Of a DNA stretch of 7,007 bases, positions 1 through 7,007 are shown piece by piece. Position numbers and translations under genes: made by a program. Position 1 is the stretch's first letter; each line of letters starts with the position of its first letter. The notes beneath the pieces are model-generated. The model made no database searches. It worked only from the letters and a program-made list of their open reading frames with translations, and was not told the DNA's origin. The stretch is from a virus (lineage: Duplodnaviria; Heunggongvirae; Uroviricota; Caudoviricetes), in IMG/VR virus record IMGVR_UViG_2529292874_000015; one strand, given 5' to 3'.

Positions 1-183
1 ATAATCACGACCATCACGCGGAACAGGAATATGGCTTACCGCCTCCTTCACCATCTGTTCAAGCATCGGACGCACATCATCGGGGGTAATACTTTTGCCG
101 TCCGCCGGTACCGGAATATTCGCAACCGCATCATTCACCGCCTGCTGCAGTACATCCGGATCATAATCACGACCATCACGCGG
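1..183. repeat. Coding tandem repeat: 21-bp perfect direct repeat (1..21 and 163..183) marking a 162-bp periodic repeat
   Basis: ataatcacgaccatcacgcgg occurs at 1..21 and 163..183; ggtaccggaat recurs at 108..118 and 182..192; corresponds to the IPVP(R/A)DG protein repeats of the minus-strand ORF. Confidence 0.7.
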
Positions 184-408
184 TACCGGAATGGCCCCCA
201 CAGCATCATCCACCATCGCCTGCAGAACCGGACGCACCTCATCCACCGTCACATGCTTCTGTAATACCACAGACAGGGAAGCCAGTTTCTCTTCAAACGC
301 TTGTGCCTGCGAGGCCATCTTCCCCTCAAATGTGCGCTGTAAATCCGCCAGCACTGCGGAAAATTCTTCACCCAGCGCACGGATAATGGACAGTTCACGT
401 TCATTCAT
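1..408 (-). CDS. Partial ORF (start at 408, 3' end beyond the left edge): tandem-repeat protein of unknown function, translationally coupled to the portal gene
   Basis: Minus-strand frame is open for all 136 codons from ATG 408..406 to position 1 (my own translation: MNERELSIIRALGEEFSAVLADLQRTFEGKMASQAQAFEEKLASLSVVLQKHVTVDEVRPVLQAMVDDAVGAIPVPRDGRDYDPDVLQQAVNDAVANIPVPADGKSITPDDVRPMLEQMVKEAVSHIPVPRDGRDY...). ATG overlaps the TGA (407..405) of the upstream portal frame as ATGA; purine-rich AGGGGGA about 10 nt upstream. Absent from the supplied ORF track, probably because it has no stop codon inside the window. Confidence 0.6.
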   Translation of the reverse strand, partial: MNERELSIIRALGEEFSAVLADLQRTFEGKMASQAQAFEEKLASLSVVLQKHVTVDEVRPVLQAMVDDAVGAIPVPRDGRDYDPDVLQQAVNDAVANIPVPADGKSITPDDVRPMLEQMVKEAVSHIPVPRDGRDY

Positions 409-845
409 TTTTTCAGAATCCCCCTGAACATCGCCTTCACCGCATCATGCTCTGTTTCAGTGATTGCCTTATTACCGTCAGATGCGCCGTCAGGCGGTTG
501 CGCTAAGGCCGTTTTCCCGGTCGACGCGAACGGATCTTCACGGGCATCACGACGGGACAGCGCCTCCAGACTGTAGTTCTGCTGCTGAAGATACAGTGCA
601 TCACCGCCGGCAAGGGGCGGCAGGTTCTCACGTTTACGGGCCTCATTGGGCGTGAGAAGCGTATTTTTCACCGACTCACCCAGCGTTTTCATGCGCCGTT
701 CGCTGTCCATTCTCAGCAGCGTGGTGACGTCAAACTCCGTGCTCTCGTTTTCCCCCGTTTCCAGCGCCTCATCCAGTAACAGCTCAATGGACTCAATCAG
801 CGTCTGCAGACACTGGGAATAATACTGCTGCTCCAGCGCCTCCAC
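405..845 (-). CDS. Portal protein, C-terminal segment (separate frame from the main portal ORF; frameshifted gene or assembly indel)
   Basis: 146-codon ORF (GTG at 845..843); the frame is actually open from 914. Sequence (N)VEALEQQYYSQCLQTLIESIELLLDEAL... continues the portal family C-terminal region that follows the conserved FRVP.Y.IG block found in the 797..1936 frame; acidic low-complexity tail; stop is ATGA-coupled to the next gene. Confidence 0.6.
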   Translation of the reverse strand: MEALEQQYYSQCLQTLIESIELLLDEALETGENESTEFDVTTLLRMDSERRMKTLGESVKNTLLTPNEARKRENLPPLAGGDALYLQQQNYSLEALSRRDAREDPFASTGKTALAQPPDGASDGNKAITETEHDAVKAMFRGILKK

Positions 846-1936
846 GTTGTCACTGGAAGGCGGTGGCCAACGCCAATCTTGTAGGCCGGGACACGGAACA
901 CCGAACAGACAATTTCAGCGGTCATCTTCAGTTGTTCCACCGTCTGCGCATCCACCGGTGAAAACGTCGTGGGGTTGTATTTTGCCCCGTTGCTCAGAAT
1001 GGCCGTTTTCCCCGCATTTTCGCCGGTATACCCGCTGTCCCAGTTGCTCTTCAGTTTTTTCGCATTTTCTTCCGTAATACTGCCGGGGATCTCAATCACC
1101 CCGGACGGCCTGCCGCCATTTCTGAAAAAAGACGTCGAATTTTCCTGAATATGATGCCCCTGCGTGGCCGCCAGCCCGGCGGCATACACCGGCGGCAGCC
1201 CCACAAGCGGATGAAAAAAACAGTTAAACCGGTCGTGGATCACTTCCCTGGCAGGCACCGTCACCGCCTCCGTGATCCCGCAGTTCCGGTCCGGTGTAAT
1301 GCGATAGAACACCTCGCCGTCATCCGCCACCAGAGGTTCAACCCGGCTCCAGTCCAGAATACGCAGTTCTTTGATCTGCCCCCGGGAGTTACGGATTTTC
1401 AGCACCACCGTATTGCCGTGACGCAGTTTGGAATTCAGCCACAGTTCAAAAAACTGGATGCGATTCTGCTGTGCATTAGGACGACGACAGAGACGGGCAG
1501 TATCTCCCTGCCGCTTTTCCCGGCGTATTCCCTGTACATCAGTCTGCATCAGGCGAAGCCGCATTTTGGCAATATCCTGGGATATCAGCGAAATGCATGA
1601 AAACACCGCGTGAAAGGACAAAACGGTTTCCGGATCGGCTTTCACACCCTGCTGCCAGGCACCGGCAAAAGGCTCAGCCACCGCCTGAAACAGGGACCGC
1701 CAGCCCACTTCTCTTACGTCACGTCCTGATTTCTGGTTTTTTCGGGTTCGCCGCAAAAAGGTTCCACATTCGCCATGCTCCGCATCATGTTTCTTTTTCT
1801 GACCCGCCGGACGTCGCGCTGTGATGTACTCCGCCTTCCTCAGGCGAACCAGCACCTCCGCACACGGCTGTGCGACATCACGGATATCCCCGGCCCGGGC
1901 ATCATGCGTGCCCTGCAGATATCGGATCTTTGCCAT
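797..1936 (-). CDS. Phage portal protein, HK97 family (main body; native C-terminus continues in frame of 405..845)
   Basis: 379-codon ORF, ATG 1936..1934. Core blocks LSFHAVFSCISLISQDIAKMRL, FFRNGGRPSGVIEIPGSITEENAKKLKSNW and EQLKMTAEIVCSVFRVPAYKIGVG match the conserved portal (Phage_portal-type) motifs as I recall them. The last ~22 residues (HRLPVTTWRRWSSS...) look non-native and the first ~60 residues are compositionally atypical. Confidence 0.8.
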   Translation of the reverse strand: MAKIRYLQGTHDARAGDIRDVAQPCAEVLVRLRKAEYITARRPAGQKKKHDAEHGECGTFLRRTRKNQKSGRDVREVGWRSLFQAVAEPFAGAWQQGVKADPETVLSFHAVFSCISLISQDIAKMRLRLMQTDVQGIRREKRQGDTARLCRRPNAQQNRIQFFELWLNSKLRHGNTVVLKIRNSRGQIKELRILDWSRVEPLVADDGEVFYRITPDRNCGITEAVTVPAREVIHDRFNCFFHPLVGLPPVYAAGLAATQGHHIQENSTSFFRNGGRPSGVIEIPGSITEENAKKLKSNWDSGYTGENAGKTAILSNGAKYNPTTFSPVDAQTVEQLKMTAEIVCSVFRVPAYKIGVGHRLPVTTWRRWSSSIIPSVCRR

Positions 1937-1946
1937 AACCTGTTAC

Positions 1947-1964
1947 GGGAGGCGCACGCCTCCC
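1947..1964 (-). other. Perfect 18-nt GC-rich palindrome (RNA hairpin) between Shine-Dalgarno and portal start codon
   Basis: gggaggcgcacgcctccc (8-bp stem, 2-nt centre) lies between AAGGAGGA (1973..1966) and ATG (1936..1934); no U-tract follows. Confidence 0.4.
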
Positions 1965-1980
1965 GTCCTCCTTATCAGAC

Positions 1981-3663
1981 TCAGCCGCCGGACGCACTGC
2001 CGTAGTTCACTCCGGTGATCACCGCCACCGCCGCGGTACGGCGACGACGCCAGTTGATCCAGCGCTCCGCACGGATGGCCACACTGCCTGTCTGGAACAT
2101 GGAAACCAGCTCCACCGGCGACGGCGTGGTACTGTCGCCGCCCGGCTCAGACTGCATTTCCAGTGATGCCTCGCGGGACATATCCACTGCCACGCCGCCG
2201 TCATCCGCCAGATAAATATCCGGGGCATTCACCAGCACCAGCTGGTCACCCACGTACTGGGAGACAATCACCGGCAGCCCCTGGAAGGTCCCGCCCAGCA
2301 GGGTCATGTCCGGATATTCCTTCTGACCCAGCGCATTTTTACGCATGGACAGCGCCAGGGCATTCGTGCTGGACATCAGCCAGACCGCACCGGTGGGCTG
2401 CAGATTTGCCGTCACAAACTGGCCAAACGCGGCCTCGGCATCCGCATCCGGATTACCGCTTGACGCCGTGCCCTTCACATCATGGGTGATGGACGCCGGG
2501 GAGACATCCGCCACCGCCGCTTTTTTCGGGTCCACAAAGTCTGTGTCCAGACGCGCCACCACCGCTTCTGCCAGCGCATTACGGACCAGCGCATCAGCTG
2601 CCGGACTGGAAAAACGGATCAGCTCTTCCGTCAGTACCGCAATGGCCGACACCTTCGCATGACTGAAGGTGATGGATTCAAAATCAAACTTCGTCAGGGG
2701 TCTGGCCTTACCCTCCCCCACCCAGCCGGCAGCACCACCGGACACCTGGGCATGCACGCGGATATTGAACGGCACCTGACGAAGTGCAGGGATCCCGCCC
2801 TGACCAAATCGCCCGATAATGGTCTGCGGACGCAGGTAATCAATAAAGTCCTGCGCATATTCCTGGTATTCAGACAGGCTGCCTGCCCACTGCGGGTCCG
2901 TGGTGGTCCCTGCCCCCACCGCCGATTTCAGGACATGATGCAGACGGCTGTCATCCGGATACTGACGACGGGCCACTTCCAGGGCTTCAGAGCGGACACC
3001 TTTAGCCGCGGCCAGTGATTTGGCAAAGCGGGCGAAACCAATCCCCTTCTCCAGTTTCTGCTCAACACGGATCACCGGCGCTGAAGCCACCGTGGCCACA
3101 TTCCCGTTACCGGCCTGTTTCACCGGCTGTGCCGTGGCGGCCTTACTGGTTTCCAGTTCACGCAGACGCTTCAGGTGCGCATCCACCTGACGGATTTCCG
3201 CTGCGGTGTTGTCGTAATGCTCTTCCTCCTCCACATCCAGCGTGCGCCCTTCCTCTGCGGCTTTGGTCATGACCTCCTCAAGGGAGGCTGCCAGTGCTGC
3301 ACGCTTGTTTTCAAAACTTTTAATCTGTTCGCCAATATTCATTATGGTCTTTTCCTTATGAAAAACGGTTGTTGACTGTGCCGCAGCGCCGGCAGAAGAT
3401 GCGATTTTCACCACCGGTTTCCGGTTGCCGGACGCGGCAGAAAACGGGCGGTCGTAAGATTTAATGGTCCGGATGGTGCATTCCGCATTCGCGGGCACGG
3501 TGACGGCAGACACCTCCATCAGCTCCCAGCGCAGAAAATGCAGTCCGCCTCCGTCCAGAAAGGTGTATTCATGAGGACGGAAGCCCACGGACAGCCCCCT
3601 GACCAGCCCGGTCTTAATGGCCGCCCAGGCCTCATCCAGCCGGGCAGCCAGTTGCGATGGCAT
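1981..3663 (-). CDS. Prohead protease (C-terminal half) + scaffold-like delta region + HK97-fold major capsid protein in one reading frame
   Basis: 560-codon ORF. Residues 1-60 (…IKTGLVRGLSVGFRP…LMEVSAVTVPANAEC) resemble the Ser-motif half of HK97-type prohead proteases; residues ~108-200 are a charged coiled-coil-like region (MNIGEQIKSFENKRAALAASLEEVMTKAAEEGRTLDVEEEEH…RLRELE) typical of capsid delta/scaffold domains; the remainder is capsid-like (…ITFSHAKVSAIAVLTEELIRFSSPAADALVRNALAEAVVARLDTDFVDP… and C-terminal …VSMFQTGSVAIRAERW…). Internal AAGGA (3357..3353) + ATG (3342..3340) could also start a stand-alone capsid protein. Confidence 0.85.
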   Translation of the reverse strand: MPSQLAARLDEAWAAIKTGLVRGLSVGFRPHEYTFLDGGGLHFLRWELMEVSAVTVPANAECTIRTIKSYDRPFSAASGNRKPVVKIASSAGAAAQSTTVFHKEKTIMNIGEQIKSFENKRAALAASLEEVMTKAAEEGRTLDVEEEEHYDNTAAEIRQVDAHLKRLRELETSKAATAQPVKQAGNGNVATVASAPVIRVEQKLEKGIGFARFAKSLAAAKGVRSEALEVARRQYPDDSRLHHVLKSAVGAGTTTDPQWAGSLSEYQEYAQDFIDYLRPQTIIGRFGQGGIPALRQVPFNIRVHAQVSGGAAGWVGEGKARPLTKFDFESITFSHAKVSAIAVLTEELIRFSSPAADALVRNALAEAVVARLDTDFVDPKKAAVADVSPASITHDVKGTASSGNPDADAEAAFGQFVTANLQPTGAVWLMSSTNALALSMRKNALGQKEYPDMTLLGGTFQGLPVIVSQYVGDQLVLVNAPDIYLADDGGVAVDMSREASLEMQSEPGGDSTTPSPVELVSMFQTGSVAIRAERWINWRRRRTAAVAVITGVNYGSASGG

Positions 3664-3919
3664 ATCCGGCTACGGGCTTCACCAGTGTTGCCGTGATTTC
3701 CAGCCCTTCGCTGACCCGGCGCACCGTACACTGGCCCCACAGGGCGGGAATGGTCATGCTGCCAGAGAAACGGGATCGCACTGCCAAACTCCGCCCCTCC
3801 GGCTCCAGGATGTCACCATCCCGATCCGGAGAAGGCGTTGACGCAATCCCGGTGATCACCCGTTCATCCTCGCTGAAGGATTTCACCGTCAGCAGGGAAC
3901 AGGCCCGTTTAAGAGTCAC
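3632..3919 (-). CDS. Prohead protease, N-terminal segment (frame-disrupted relative to the downstream protease/capsid ORF)
   Basis: 95-codon ORF starting GTG 3919..3917 with AGGAGG 5 nt upstream; N-terminus …FSEDERVITGIASTPSPDRDGDILEPEG is protease-like, but the frame then lacks the catalytic His block, which is encoded in the adjacent frame (LWQHD at 3767..3753). See findings. Confidence 0.65.
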   Translation of the reverse strand: MTLKRACSLLTVKSFSEDERVITGIASTPSPDRDGDILEPEGRSLAVRSRFSGSMTIPALWGQCTVRRVSEGLEITATLVKPVAGYAIATGCPAG

Positions 3920-3931
3920 ATCAGCCTCCTG

Positions 3932-3957
3932 AAAATAAAAAAACCGCCGCAGCGGTT
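3932..3957 (-). terminator. Possible weak intrinsic terminator/attenuator between terL and the protease gene
   Basis: On the minus strand, 25 nt after the terL stop: AACCGC-UGCG-GCGGUU (6-bp stem, 3957..3942) followed by UUUUUAUUUU (3941..3932), then AGGAGG and the GTG start of the protease gene. Confidence 0.35.
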
Positions 3958-3982
3958 CATGATGGTTACAGGGTGAACAGGG

Positions 3983-5662
3983 TTATATGAAAAAAACCGC
4001 ATATTCTTTCTTTTTCGGCTCCGGATTCAGGGACATCAGGGATACCGCATTGAAGAGCGCCATCAGCGGGTCAATTTTCCCCCGTCCGCTGGCCTGTTTG
4101 GTAATAAGGATAGCGTTACCTTTAGGCTCCACCCGGGCATTGCCAACGCACCAGGCCATCAGTGGCTGACCACCATGCACCAGTACTCCCTCAGCCAGTT
4201 TGCGCTCGGTGGTTTTTATGGCCCCGCCCAGCTTCCAGCCCTGGCTTATCCCCACAACAATTCCGTCGGGGATCCCGGCTTCCGCCAGTGAATCCAGAAT
4301 CTGCCCCACACCTGACGGGTCAATACCGATATGCTCCAGTAACTCAGCCTCATGAATACGACGCACATACTCCGCCACTTCCGCCGTGTCATCCCCGACC
4401 CGACGGACAATCGTCATGTCTCCACAGGCCACAAAATCCTGAAAACGGGATGCCTCACTCTTCCGTCTGACCACCGCGGTTTCATGCGCCCAGGCATGGC
4501 CCCAGCCCAGCCATTCGCGGGTTTCCCTGTCACGGCCAATCACGTACATTCCCAGCAGATCATCCAGGCCCCCGCCGTCAATCCCCACCGTCACCACATC
4601 AGCGCGCTGCAGGATATCGTCCAGGCTGACGCGCCTGCCCTGCTGCTCCCAGAAATCCGCACCCGCCCAGCGGTCAGAACGCAGGGCAAGACCAATTTCC
4701 ACATTGGCATGTTTTGACATGAAGCCACGAAATGCTTCCTCACCAGCCTCCCGGGCTTTACGGTACTCCCGGTACAGAAAAGCCTCATCCACCGAATAAC
4801 CGAGATTCGGATTGACCATGGCGAGGTTTTCCATCAGCAGGTGAGCCCCGCTTTCCACCATTTCAGGAGGGTGTTCAAATATCACCGGCAGAAAGTGCGG
4901 ATCATGAATTTTGCCGTCACGGACATCCCGGGCGTACTGCAGTTTCTGTCTGAACACCCCGGCTGGCGGCTCATTCGACTGGGTGGTCGTATACACCACA
5001 AACCCTTCCGGGCGGGAGGCAAGGCCGCCTATGGCTTCACGTAACATGTCCTCCGCCTTGCACTGCTTGCCAAACAGCCACAACTCATCAATCAGCGTAC
5101 CCACGGACTTGATACCGGACACCGTATTCGGATCGGCTGCCACCACCTTCAGGGTGGTGTCCGTCACCCGGTGGGTGATGGTCCGGATATGTGTCTGTAC
5201 CTGGCAGAGGTCATCCAGATCATCGTCCCGTCGTACCATATCCCGGGCAGGGTTGAAGGCGTTAGCCGCCACCTCCACGGTCGGGGCCAGAATCGTGTAA
5301 CCCGCCGCCTGCCGCCAGTTCAGTAACAGTGCAGTCATCATGATCCCCGCGGCCAGCGTGGACTTCGAGTTTTTCTTGGGGATAAGGATAAACACTTCCT
5401 TGATATGGCGAACACCGGTCTGCGCATCGTAGGAGCCAAACAGGGCCGCCACCAGGTCAAACACCCACGGTGCACAGGACTCCCCGAATGTCGGGCTACC
5501 CGGTGCATCCACAATCCGCAGTTGTTTAAAAATCGCCAGGGCATGTGCAGCCTGTCCGGATAAATCGGAGCCGGAATAATCGACAGCCCCTTTTTCAGGC
5601 GCTCTGCCCAGTCCGGGCAGGCCGTGCTCCACACAGGTATCATCCGTTGCCCTCATTATCAT
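3983..5662 (-). CDS. terL: Terminase large subunit (Terminase_1-like)
   Basis: 559-codon ORF, ATG 5662..5660, overlaps the terS stop by 23 nt; Walker-A-like FILIPKKNSKSTLAAGI near the N-terminus; C-terminal nuclease-like half (…VTVGIDGGGLDDL…, …HIGIDPSGVGQ…); position directly after terS. Confidence 0.9.
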   Translation of the reverse strand: MIMRATDDTCVEHGLPGLGRAPEKGAVDYSGSDLSGQAAHALAIFKQLRIVDAPGSPTFGESCAPWVFDLVAALFGSYDAQTGVRHIKEVFILIPKKNSKSTLAAGIMMTALLLNWRQAAGYTILAPTVEVAANAFNPARDMVRRDDDLDDLCQVQTHIRTITHRVTDTTLKVVAADPNTVSGIKSVGTLIDELWLFGKQCKAEDMLREAIGGLASRPEGFVVYTTTQSNEPPAGVFRQKLQYARDVRDGKIHDPHFLPVIFEHPPEMVESGAHLLMENLAMVNPNLGYSVDEAFLYREYRKAREAGEEAFRGFMSKHANVEIGLALRSDRWAGADFWEQQGRRVSLDDILQRADVVTVGIDGGGLDDLLGMYVIGRDRETREWLGWGHAWAHETAVVRRKSEASRFQDFVACGDMTIVRRVGDDTAEVAEYVRRIHEAELLEHIGIDPSGVGQILDSLAEAGIPDGIVVGISQGWKLGGAIKTTERKLAEGVLVHGGQPLMAWCVGNARVEPKGNAILITKQASGRGKIDPLMALFNAVSLMSLNPEPKKKEYAVFFI

Positions 5663-6203
5663 TATTCACCACCAGGCGGGGTGGTGGTGGCACCGCAAAA
5701 CGGTTAGCCGCTTTTTTCGCCGCGTCACCTTTTGCCGATTTTTTACCGGCATCCCCTTTTTTGTGGTGCGTGAACTGCGCCAGCTTATAAGCCGCATCCA
5801 GCGCCAGCCTGGGGTCGGTATTAATGTTCTCCACCAGAAGACGCCCCATCGCTTTCACCGGATCGGGAAGACCGTCCTCCATATACTCAATACCAGGAGA
5901 TATCACCACGGGCGGTGGCATCTCCGGATTTGTTTCGTCCGGCTGTGGTATTGCAGCCGCCTCACGGCGACGGGGTTTATCCTCCTGCTCTGATTTTTTC
6001 TGCCGGTAAACAGGAACCTCATCCACCTCCACCGTCTCGCACTGTTTACGGGCTATAAACGCAAGCACCTCCGGATCTTTTGCCAGCTGCGAGCCTTTAA
6101 CCCTGGCGGTCTTCGCCGAATAACCGGCGGCAATGGCTGACGCTGTTTTGTTTTTCCCGGACATGAGCGCCAGCGCAAATTTTCGTTTTTGCGTTGTCAG
6201 CAC
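5640..6203 (-). CDS. terS: Terminase small subunit (helix-turn-helix N-terminus, P27/Terminase_2-like)
   Basis: 187-codon ORF, GTG start 6203..6201 preceded by GGAGGAGG; N-terminal LTTQKRKFALALMSGKNKTASAIAAGYSAKTARVKGSQL is the characteristic DNA-binding helix-turn-helix of small terminases; basic/Pro-rich C-terminal tail; immediately upstream of and overlapping terL. Confidence 0.8.
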   Translation of the reverse strand: MLTTQKRKFALALMSGKNKTASAIAAGYSAKTARVKGSQLAKDPEVLAFIARKQCETVEVDEVPVYRQKKSEQEDKPRRREAAAIPQPDETNPEMPPPVVISPGIEYMEDGLPDPVKAMGRLLVENINTDPRLALDAAYKLAQFTHHKKGDAGKKSAKGDAAKKAANRFAVPPPPRLVVNNDNEGNG

Positions 6204-6273
6204 AGCCTCCTCCCGGGTCCAGAACGCACTCAGCCGGGTATGGTTCAGCCCATTTTTCCCGGCGTCTCATGCC

Positions 6274-6401
6274 GCAAATGTTAACTGCTGCCTGGTTAAC
6301 ATTTGCTGAAAAAGCCAGTTAACATTTTTTCCGCACAACAAACTGAATAATAAAGATAAAAACCGCAAAAATGCCCGGACAGCCAGTTAACATGTTAACT
6401 G
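6274..6401. promoter_or_regulatory. Array of GTTAAC-centred palindromic repeats (candidate cosB-like terminase-binding or operator sites)
   Basis: Five GTTAAC hexamers at 6280, 6295, 6318, 6386 and 6394: a 12-bp inverted repeat with 9-bp spacer (GCAAATGTTAAC-N9-GTTAACATTTGC, 6274..6306), a half-site AGCCAGTTAACAT (6313..6325) and a perfect 18-bp palindrome CAGTTAACATGTTAACTG (6384..6401). I found no other GTTAAC in the window by eye. Confidence 0.5.
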
Positions 6402-6491
6402 CCCTGAAACGGGAATTTTTTCTCTGCGTGAGAGGGGGCGCGGTGTCCGGAGCGATCGTTTTTTTCGCCGGATGATCCCCCCCGAGTCTGG

Positions 6492-6857
6492 TCACAGTCC
6501 GATGATATCGTCTGCCCTGCCATGACCTCCGGACACCTCCGGCAGCGTCGGGTCCGGCATACCACCCGCCGCTTCACGAGCAGACTTCTGTCGATGGCAT
6601 TCGGTACAGAGCGTCCAGAGATTCGTCTCCTCATTACCACCACCGAACTGAAGTGCAATTCGGTGATCGAGTTCACTGTCACAGAGGTCAACCACGCGTC
6701 TACAGAGACAACAGTGTCCGGCATCCCTCCGCCAGATACGACGTTTGAGGGAAACCCGGGCACTGCCACTGACACGACGCTGTTCCCCCCTCAGGACATT
6801 TATCCGCCGGGTGTTCAGAGTTTTGATTCTGCCCGGTAACGTACGAAGCACAGCCAT
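6492..6857 (-). CDS. HNH endonuclease (phage packaging-associated)
   Basis: 121-codon ORF, ATG 6857..6855 with GAGGA 6 nt upstream; HNH/zinc-finger motif HCCLCRRVVDLCDSELDHRIALQFGGGNEETNLWTLCTECHRQK (C-x2-C … DH … N … C-x2-C-H); located immediately upstream of terS, as in cos-type HK97-like phages. Confidence 0.85.
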   Translation of the reverse strand: MAVLRTLPGRIKTLNTRRINVLRGEQRRVSGSARVSLKRRIWRRDAGHCCLCRRVVDLCDSELDHRIALQFGGGNEETNLWTLCTECHRQKSAREAAGGMPDPTLPEVSGGHGRADDIIGL

Positions 6858-6898
6858 GTAAAATCCTCGCCATATAGCTTGTCACCAGAGGAAAGAAA

Positions 6899-7007
6899 AT
6901 GTCATCGAAAAACCGGACCCGCAGAACCACAATCCGCAATATCCGTTTCCCCAATCACATGATTGAACAGATCAATATCGCCCTTGAACATAAAGGTTCC
7001 GGTAACT
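6899..7007 (+). CDS. Partial ORF (N-terminal 36 codons, continues beyond the right edge): small RHH-like DNA-binding protein, YlcI/DUF3950-like
   Basis: ATG 6899..6901 with AGAGG 7 nt upstream; MSSKNRTRRTTIRNIRFPNHMIEQINIALEHKGSGN; basic N-terminus, a beta-strand-like TIRNIRFP followed by helix-like MIEQINIAL (ribbon-helix-helix pattern); resembles small prophage proteins found next to terminase genes in enterobacterial lambdoid prophages (from memory, not searched). Confidence 0.5.
   Translation, partial: MSSKNRTRRTTIRNIRFPNHMIEQINIALEHKGSGN

What the first reader, a model, noticed from the sequence alone, without database searches (positions are those of the whole stretch)
3632..3815. Prohead protease catalytic block (LWQHD) is out of frame: three homopolymer-length changes within ~170 bp
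The 95-codon frame starting at GTG 3919 encodes a protease-like N-terminus (…ITGIASTPSPDRDGDILEPEG) and then RSLAVRSRFSGSMTIPALWG, which has no His. The adjacent frame (that of the 73-codon ORF, open 3812..3519) encodes AEFGSAIPFLWQHDHSRPVG from the same DNA: LWQHD-x3-P-x-G is the conserved catalytic-His region of HK97-type prohead proteases, at the expected distance from the N-terminal DxxGD block. Reading …EPEG-AEFGSAIPFLWQHDHSRPVG-QCTVRRVSEGLEITATLVKP… needs G5 instead of the observed G4 at minus-strand 3797..3794 and G3 instead of G4 at 3738..3735. A third single-base change in 3635..3669 (for example CC instead of CCC at 3644..3642) is needed to pass into …RLDEAWAAIKTGLVRGLSVGF, the Ser-motif half in the 560-codon frame. 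The first two changes compensate each other and silently remove the catalytic His segment. Either the protease is inactivated in a decaying element, or the assembly has homopolymer errors. terL, terS, HNH and the capsid part show no comparable breaks.
Basis: partly seen in the sequence, partly recalled or inferred. Interest (0 to 1): 0.6.

Follow-up and report, generated by a model that had tools for sequence, protein, structure and literature searches.

The report
Assembly artefact in prophage capsid-protease gene
The broken head-protease gene is real in this sequence, but the window is an old draft contig that blends several near-identical prophage copies, and the frame breaks sit where those copies differ, so it is almost certainly an assembly artefact.

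Summary
The window is the head module (HNH, terS, terL, protease–capsid fusion, ORF57, portal) of a Stx-phage-like lambdoid prophage. It equals the whole 7007-bp draft contig AETX01000069.1 (GCA_000187285.4).

Three one-base changes restore a 645-codon protease–scaffold–capsid gene that is 98% identical to phage BP-4795 ORF56. Two details were wrong:
- The third indel is at 3671/3670, not within 3635..3669.
- terL (5554) and the portal (1759, 866) carry the same kind of break.

The window has six one-base indels but no private substitution against 82 relatives. Five indels are absent from 5,426 complete E. coli genomes, apart from one error-ridden copy.

In the closed genome of the sister strain PV15-279, three co-resident copies of this module account for every window base over 5,186 nt. 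No single copy is more than 96.6% identical to the window. At all six indel sites those copies carry different alleles, and the window has both or neither.

This points to a collapsed-repeat consensus, not decay. The first indel (G5 to G4) also exists as a genuine allele in 20 other genomes. Interest is low.

The parts
1..7007 (.). Whole window. It is the reverse complement of the complete 7007-bp WGS contig AETX01000069.1 (assembly GCA_000187285.4), interpreted as a collapsed consensus of several co-resident prophage head modules.
   Evidence: L097 is identical to the reverse complement of the window. Every base in 6484..1299 is present in at least one of three PV15-279 copies, while no single copy is more than 96.6% identical.
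1981..3919 (-). Prohead protease–scaffold–major capsid protein fusion gene. It is 645 codons once three bases are corrected. As written it splits into a 95-codon ORF (3919..3632) and a 560-codon ORF (3663..1981).
   Evidence: The orthologue is a single CDS in BP-4795 (CAD88857.1) and in O157 prophages.
3794..3797 (-). Indel 1. The window has GGGG; relatives have GGGCG, GGGGG, GGGTG or GGGAG (window is -1).
   Evidence: 0 of 82 panel relatives share it. The same allele occurs naturally in 20 of 5,426 complete genomes. The PV15-279 copies carry C, C and A here.
3733..3738 (-). Indel 2. The window has GGGGCC; relatives have GGGGC or (A)GGCC (window is +1). It restores the frame 61 nt after indel 1.
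   Evidence: no copy among 2,242 places shares it; L102 and L103 GGGGCAG, L104 AGGCCAG.
3670..3672 (-). Indel 3. The window has TAG; relatives have TA, TG or AG in the same register (window is +1). Not a homopolymer. It separates the 95-codon frame from the 560-codon frame.
   Evidence: L102 CCCGTGCCGG, L104 CCGGAGCCGG, window CCCGTAGCCGG.
3753..3767 (-). LWQHD, the catalytic-His block of the protease, readable only in the alternative frame of the window as written.
   Evidence: It aligns to HK97 gp4 FFNHK (His65) within one residue.
3580..3597 (-). GLSVGF, the Ser block of the protease, in the 560-codon frame.
   Evidence: (aligns to HK97 gp4 GMSVGF, Ser114).
3983..5643 (-). terL. It is 553 codons once one base is restored at 5554/5555. 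As written the conserved start at ATG 5643 runs out of frame after codon 30, and an unrelated ATG at 5662 opens a 559-codon ORF.
   Evidence: The window allele was found only in one error-ridden FORC_044 copy.
405..1769 (-). Portal gene, 454 codons once repaired. It has a +1 at about 1759 (T5 versus T4, which fuses ORF57 to the portal frame) and a -1 at about 866 (GGCCACCGCC versus GGCCA[G/C]CCGCC).
   Evidence: Neither allele occurs in 5,426 complete genomes.

Best explanation
The object is an ordinary and well-known gene. It is the N-terminal HK97-family (Peptidase_S78) prohead serine protease fused through a coiled-coil scaffold segment to an HK97-fold major capsid protein, as found in long-tailed Stx-converting and related lambdoid prophages of E. 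coli.

In intact copies the 645-aa polyprotein would place the protease inside the procapsid through its covalent link to the capsid protein. The protease would then cut itself and the scaffold away during maturation. That mechanism is inferred from the HK97 paradigm and was not tested here.

The frame breaks that remove the His block are not biological. The window is a draft contig into which reads from several 95-97% identical co-resident prophage copies were collapsed. Where the copies differ by a substitution next to or inside a short run, the consensus kept both alleles (+1) or neither (-1). This produced six one-base indels in terL, the protease and the portal.

My recollection, which the tools could not verify, is that AETX is O157:H7 strain G5101, sequenced by 454 and assembled with Newbler. 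Flow-signal averaging of mixed templates would generate exactly this kind of error. Each real copy in the strain most likely has a continuous frame containing LWQHD. The first indel alone could instead be a genuine inherited allele.
For: 1. The window is a whole 7,007-bp WGS contig. Its low-coordinate end (window bases 1-243) lies inside a 162-nt tandem repeat. Related genomes hold up to 7 copies of the module, and PV15-279 holds 6.
2. There are 0 window-private substitutions in 7,007 nt against 82 relatives, but six one-base indels that none of those relatives shares. Relatives average 0.04 private frameshifting indels per kb, against 0.86 per kb in the window.
3. After six one-base repairs, HNH, terS, terL, protease-MCP, ORF57 and portal are all full-length (121, 187, 553, 645, 73 and 454 aa) with no stop codon.
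4. The alleles at 3734, 3671, 1759 and 866 are absent from 5,426 complete E. coli genomes. The 5554 allele occurs only in a FORC_044 copy that carries about 19 further one-base deletions.
5. Three co-resident copies in the sister strain PV15-279 explain every window base over 5,186 nt. By the same test, 63 real relatives leave 44-209 bases unexplained, and the three copies tested against one another leave 26-265. Yet identity to any single copy is at most 96.6%.
6. At all six indel sites those three copies carry different alleles, and the window equals both or neither. In random-placement simulations the chance of all six hitting such sites is about 2-5e-5.
7. All three PV15-279 copies are annotated with an intact capsid-fusion CDS.
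Against: - No reads could be inspected.
- The strain name and the sequencing chemistry come from memory and were not verified.
- The window's mosaic complexity against a broad panel is within the normal range (48 segments against 20-184). Blending is therefore shown only relative to the sister strain's copies.
- Only three of the six PV15-279 copies were examined, and 38 window bases, mostly at the HNH end, are not explained by them.
- Indel 1 is a genuine segregating allele elsewhere, so at least that break could be real here.
- Real defective prophages with frameshifts are common in this lineage.
- The polymorphic-site criterion was defined after seeing the data.
Confidence: 0.87

Rival explanations
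1. Genuine decay. The contig faithfully represents one defective prophage copy whose terL, protease-capsid and portal genes have each collected real frameshifts. These include a -1/+1 pair that swaps out the catalytic His segment.
For: - Frameshifted copies of this gene are common in public data. One search returned many truncated products.
- PGAP marks the capsid or portal as 'frameshifted' in several records.
- The first indel is a real allele in 20 complete genomes, 33 copies.
Against: - Six indels with no private substitution or stop codon. From memory of Lee et al. 2012 (not verified here), substitutions outnumber small indels about 10 to 1 in E. coli, which would make 6:0 improbable at about 1e-6.
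- Five of the six indels occur in no clean genome.
- All six sit on sites that vary between co-resident copies.
- The sequence contains only alleles of the sister strain's co-resident copies.
Confidence: 0.05
2. Plain random homopolymer miscalls (454-type or long-read-type) on a correctly resolved single prophage copy, with no mixing of copies.
For: - Five of the six indels can be written as a one-unit run-length change relative to some natural allele.
- Other public copies show such errors: L095, L088 and L049.
Against: - The indel at 3671 is not in a run.
- A homopolymer-only null reaches the observed coincidence with variable sites at about 5e-5.
- No copy in 5,426 genomes is more than 96.9% identical to the contig, although every base over 5.2 kb is found among three co-resident copies of the sister strain.
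Confidence: 0.06
3. Functional recoding. The breaks are read through by programmed frameshifting, or they produce a deliberately protease-dead capsid polyprotein.
For: None specific. The first two shifts compensate each other.
Against: - Three shifts would be needed.
- I saw no slippery heptamer when reading the three sites; no dedicated scan was run.
- No other copy carries the second or third shift.
- A third shift breaks the frame again, and the same kind of break occurs in terL and the portal.
Confidence: 0.005

Closest known systems
Phage BP-4795 ORF56 'putative major head protein/prohead protease' (CAD88857.1) and its orthologues in Stx phages 2851, 1717 and YYZ-2008 and in O157 prophages (WP_000173030.1)
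   Same: Same gene, same neighbours (HNH, terS, terL, fusion gene, ORF57, portal) and same length once repaired. 634 of 646 translated positions (stop codon included) are identical.
   Different: The window carries three one-base indels that split the gene. The public orthologues are continuous.
HK97 gp4 prohead protease and gp5 major capsid protein (Pfam PF04586 Peptidase_S78; TIGR01543; PF05065 / TIGR01554)
   Same: The protease domain is 29% identical to gp4 over 148 residues. The Ser block aligns to gp4 Ser114, and the His block aligns within one residue of His65.
   Different: Here the protease, scaffold and capsid are one polypeptide, and the module order is terL, fusion gene, portal rather than terL, portal, protease, capsid. 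The TIGR01543 score of 45.8 is below its 59-bit cut-off.
Naturally frameshifted allele of the same gene (60-aa product P0005 plus a 568-aa capsid ORF) in E. coli genomes such as AP027185.1, CP027587.1 and CP027352.1
   Same: Identical G5-to-G4 change at the same run. Identical 60 residues, including the out-of-frame RSLAVRSRFSGSMTIPAL.
   Different: Those copies lack the other five indels and have intact terL and portal genes. They end at a TAG that the window does not have.
Collapsed-repeat and error-laden prophage regions in draft or long-read E. coli assemblies
   Same: Short phage-only contigs are typical of EHEC drafts because lambdoid prophages are so alike (PMC7175801). Indel errors create false pseudogenes (PMC12007338 and PMC8011154). 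Public examples found here are L095, L088 and L049.
   Different: In the window the errors are balanced (3 insertions, 3 deletions) and tied to sites that vary between copies. L095 and L088 show deletion-only noise.

Membership tests
HK97-family prohead serine protease (Pfam PF04586 Peptidase_S78 / TIGR01543) | Profile match above the curated cut-off | tested here: inconclusive
   The repaired protein scores 34.0 bits on PF04586 (cut-off 21), residues 48-152. It scores 45.8 bits on TIGR01543, below the 59-bit cut-off. As written, the 95-aa ORF matches nothing, and the 560-aa ORF keeps only the C-terminal half (22.9 bits).
HK97-family prohead serine protease (Pfam PF04586 Peptidase_S78 / TIGR01543) | Catalytic His in the conserved block (HK97 gp4 His65; residue role taken from memory of the literature) | tested here: not met
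   In the window as written, LWQHD (3767..3753) is in a different frame from the ORF that starts at 3919. It is present and aligned after repair, and in all 82 panel relatives.
HK97-family prohead serine protease (Pfam PF04586 Peptidase_S78 / TIGR01543) | Catalytic Ser block (HK97 gp4 Ser114, GMSVGF) | tested here: met
   GLSVGF at 3597..3580 aligns with GMSVGF.
HK97-family prohead serine protease (Pfam PF04586 Peptidase_S78 / TIGR01543) | Proteolytic maturation of the procapsid | not testable with these tools
   Needs biochemistry or genetics.
HK97-fold major capsid protein (PF05065 / TIGR01554) | Profile match above the curated cut-off | tested here: met
   PF05065 scores 54 bits (cut-off 24.2). 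TIGR01554 scores 79 bits (cut-off 27.5).
NCBIfam NF045541 'prohead protease/major capsid protein fusion protein' | Score above the model's cut-off (525 bits) | tested here: not met
   52 bits over residues 48-264 only. The architecture is the same but the family is different.
Collapsed-repeat consensus artefact | The unit is multi-copy in the genome and the contig ends at repeat boundaries | tested here: met
   Related genomes hold up to 7 copies, and the sister strain PV15-279 holds 6. The low-coordinate contig end (bases 1-243) lies in a 162-nt tandem repeat. The source strain itself could not be examined.
Collapsed-repeat consensus artefact | The contig matches no single copy but contains only alleles of the co-resident copies | tested here: met
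   At most 96.6% identity to any PV15-279 copy and at most 96.9% to any of 5,426 genomes. 0 of 5,186 bases are unexplained by three copies, against 44-209 in the controls.
Collapsed-repeat consensus artefact | Errors located at sites that differ between copies | tested here: met
   All six indels. Simulated chance is 2-5e-5.
Collapsed-repeat consensus artefact | Read pile-up shows mixed alleles and excess depth | not testable with these tools
   Reads are not available here.
Genuine pseudogene in a decaying prophage | The same lesions recur in independent assemblies (inherited) | tested here: not met
   Only indel 1 recurs, in 20 genomes. The indels at 3734, 3671, 1759 and 866 recur nowhere, and 5554 only in an error-ridden copy.
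Genuine pseudogene in a decaying prophage | Unconstrained substitutions or stop codons accompany the frameshifts | tested here: not met
   0 private substitutions. All genes are open after repair.
Programmed ribosomal frameshift | Slippery site and conservation of the shift among homologues | tested here: not met
   No homologue has the second or third shift.

The most novel reading that the evidence does not exclude
The G5-to-G4 frameshift at 3797..3794 may be genuine in this strain, as it is in 20 other complete genomes, one of which holds at least four copies of it. It would then mark a protease-dead allele of the protease-capsid polyprotein. Such an allele might recur at a mutational hot spot or spread among co-resident EHEC prophages. 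It might persist because intact neighbouring prophages supply the protease in trans.
Probability: 0.12. Interest if true: 0.35.

Novelty: not a real feature. Interest (0 to 1): 0.08.

Why it matters
Biologically it matters little. The gene is a known protease-capsid fusion of Stx-type prophages and is most likely intact in the real genome.

Practically it is a useful warning. Short phage contigs in old EHEC drafts can be blends of several prophage copies. Such blends create false pseudogenes and false 'compensated frameshifts', and out-of-frame start codons can hide them, as in terL here.

A simple signature tells such artefacts from decay without needing reads:
- indels but no private substitutions;
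- indels sitting on sites that vary between copies;
- every base attributable to co-resident copies of a sister genome.

The only item of possible biological interest is the genuinely segregating G4 allele found in other genomes.

Tried and rejected
- **Exact-pattern scans.** I scanned for the window's alleles in genome contigs, viral contigs and metagenome contigs and found nothing. These collections also lack the genuine G4 allele, so the negatives carry little weight.
- **Look-ups of the window's broken ORFs.** The 560-, 95-, 559- and 379-aa products are not on record. The intact HNH protein located the source contig.
- **Biased panel.** My first panel of 80 IMG/VR loci was selected through an intact protein query, so it was biased against frameshifted copies. 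It wrongly suggested that indel 1 was private. The protein search corrected this.
- **Mosaic-complexity test.** Against the broad panel the window is not unusual.
- **Recombination-junction test.** The indels lie somewhat nearer to donor switches than expected, but only weakly (P about 0.02-0.04).
- **Solved structures.** A sequence search found no solved homologue of the protease domain.
- **Literature.** Searches for the HK97 His65/Ser114 assignment, for the E. coli substitution-to-indel ratio and for AETX00000000 gave no usable text. Those points rest on my memory and are marked as such.
- **Methylation-motif errors.** Considered and rejected. Only the 5554 site overlaps a Dcm motif (CCAGG), by my inspection of the haplotypes.
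- **Programmed frameshifting.** Rejected.
- **Last E. coli genome search.** A search for the HNH end did not return another PV15-279 copy, so 38 bases remain unattributed.

Full report
**What the window is.** On the minus strand the window carries the following genes:
- an HNH endonuclease (6857..6492);
- terS (6203..5640);
- terL (from 5643);
- a protease-capsid gene (from GTG 3919 to 1981);
- a small ORF57 (from 1936);
- the portal (about 1769..405).

It is 95-97% identical to the head module of long-tailed Stx-converting phages (BP-4795, 2851, 1717 and others) and to prophages in about 1,250 of 5,426 complete E. coli genomes. In those records the protease and capsid form one 645-codon CDS, annotated 'major head protein/prohead protease'.

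**Checking the observation.**
- Relatives have one more base at 3797..3794 and one fewer at 3738..3733.
It is an extra base at 3671/3670 (window CGTAGCC; relatives CGTACC, CGTGCC or GGAGCC) and is not a homopolymer.
- Correcting the three bases gives a 645-aa protein with 634 of 646 translated positions (stop codon included) identical to BP-4795 ORF56.
- That protein matches Peptidase_S78 (34 bits, cut-off 21), Phage_capsid and TIGR01554.
- Against HK97 gp4, GLSVGF aligns with GMSVGF (Ser114). LWQHD aligns within one residue of FFNHK (His65). That these residues are catalytic is from my memory of the HK97 literature.
A missing base at 5554 shifts the frame after codon 30, and an unrelated upstream ATG at 5662 masks the break.
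- The portal has a +1 at 1759 and a -1 at 866.

**Real decay or artefact: first pass.** I projected 82 relatives onto the window.
- Every one of the 7,007 window bases occurs in some relative, so there are no private substitutions. Six one-base indels were shared by none of them.
- Relatives average 0.04 private frameshifting indels per kb. The window has 0.86 per kb.
- After six repairs, all six genes are full-length with no stop codon.
- All six indels lie on columns that vary among relatives, and the window carries both alleles or neither. Random placement reaches this at about 2-5e-5.

**A correction to my own analysis.** The panel had been gathered with an intact protein as the query, so it was biased against frameshifted copies.
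- A protein search with the 95-aa ORF found a 60-aa product (P0005) identical to its first 60 residues, including the out-of-frame stretch. It is on record from 251 contigs.
- Ten fetched loci and a 45-mer test show that the G5-to-G4 allele at 3797..3794 is genuine in 20 complete genomes, 33 copies.
- None of those copies carries the other five indels.
- Direct tests on 5,426 complete genomes found no copy with the 3734, 3671, 1759 or 866 alleles.
- The 5554 allele was found only in a FORC_044 copy whose terL has about 19 further one-base deletions.

**Finding the source.** The intact HNH protein located the window exactly. It is the reverse complement of the whole 7,007-bp contig AETX01000069.1 of GCA_000187285.4.
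- The neighbouring accession prefixes AETY, AETZ and AEUA are the 2011 'stepwise model' O157 drafts.
- I recall AETX as O157:H7 strain G5101, sequenced by 454, but I could not verify this.
- The low-coordinate contig end (window bases 1-243) lies inside a 162-nt tandem repeat.
- EHEC drafts are known to break into phage-only contigs because their lambdoid prophages are so similar (PMC7175801).

**The decisive comparison.** PV15-279 is a closed genome of the same glucuronidase-positive O157:H7 lineage that G5101 belongs to. It was the top hit in three searches and holds six copies of the module. I fetched three copies, and all three have an intact fusion gene.
- The window is at most 96.6% identical to any one copy. 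Over 6484..1299 (5,186 nt), none of its bases is absent from all three.
- By the same test, 63 real relatives leave 44-209 bases unexplained. The three copies tested against one another leave 26-265.
- The window alternates between the copy types in 28 segments, some only 3-30 nt long.
- At all six indel sites the copies carry different alleles, and the window is their sum or their omission:

| Site | L102 | L104 | Window |
|---|---|---|---|
| 3671 | CCCGTGCCGG | CCGGAGCCGG | CCCGTAGCCGG |
| 1759 | AACTTTTTG | AACCTTTTG | AACCTTTTTG |
| 3734 | GGGGCAG | AGGCCAG | GGGGCCAG |

**Interpretation.** The contig is a consensus of reads pooled from several co-resident prophage copies. The indels arise where the pooled templates disagree. 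If the data were 454 reads assembled in flow space, independent rounding of averaged run lengths would give exactly such +1 and -1 errors. That step is inference. The protease is therefore very probably intact in every real copy. Indel 1 alone might be a genuine inherited allele, though the three sister-strain copies have C, C and A at that position rather than G4.

**Rivals.**
- Genuine multi-hit decay is disfavoured. There are no private substitutions and no stops, five of the six lesions recur nowhere, and the lesions are tied to sites that vary between copies.
- Simple homopolymer noise on a resolved single copy fails on the 3671 site. It also fails because no genome contains a matching haplotype.
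- Programmed recoding has no support.

**Verdict.** The feature is not real biology, and interest is low.

Noticed in passing
window 5528..5662 (-): terL has a -1 at 5554. The conserved start at ATG 5643 reads 30 correct codons and then goes out of frame. An unrelated ATG at 5662 in the downstream frame creates a 559-codon ORF that looks intact, although its first ~36 residues are spurious.
   Followed up: yes
window 1755..1769 and 862..868 (-): The portal has a +1 (T5 versus T4) four codons after its start, which fuses ORF57 (from 1936) to the portal frame. A -1 at about 866 then splits it into the 379- and 146-codon ORFs. Both alleles are absent from 5,426 complete genomes.
   Followed up: yes
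L084-L094 (for example AP027185.1, CP027587.1, CP027352.1); equivalent to window 3797..3794: A genuine G5-to-G4 frameshift allele of the protease-capsid gene gives a 60-aa product plus a 568-aa capsid ORF. It occurs in 20 complete genomes (33 copies), with at least four copies in one genome and on two haplotype backgrounds. terL and the portal are intact in those copies. Whether these prophages still build heads is unknown.
   Followed up: partly
window 424..428 (-); L002, L092: A G5/G6 run 19 nt before the portal stop codon is polymorphic among relatives (about 49 versus 26). G6 fuses the portal in frame to the downstream repeat-rich ORF59, giving an 859-aa product in L092. PGAP labels many of these portals 'frameshifted'. 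The window has G5.
   Followed up: partly
window 1..243; L084-L096 downstream of the portal: The window ends inside a tandem array with a 162-nt (54-aa) unit in ORF59 (IPVPRDGRDYDPDVLQ...PADGKSITPDDV...). Further units are 84-88% identical. This is a likely cause of the contig break.
   Followed up: partly
window 6477..6483: An intergenic G run between HNH and terS is G7 in the window and hypervariable (roughly G6 to G13) among relatives, sometimes followed by an extra T.
   Followed up: no
L095 (NZ_CP016755.1 FORC_044, terL), L088 (CP061244.1), L049 (IMGVR_UViG_2630968414_000003): Public copies of the same module are riddled with one-base deletions: about 19 in the terL of L095 and about 25 across L088. 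L049 has five private frameshifts. These are probably sequencing errors in repeated prophage DNA.
   Followed up: partly
window 6480..7007: The HNH end of the contig matches no complete E. coli genome better than 97.3%, although the exact 121-aa HNH protein occurs on 16 other contigs. The 38 window bases not explained by the three PV15-279 copies are concentrated here.
   Followed up: partly
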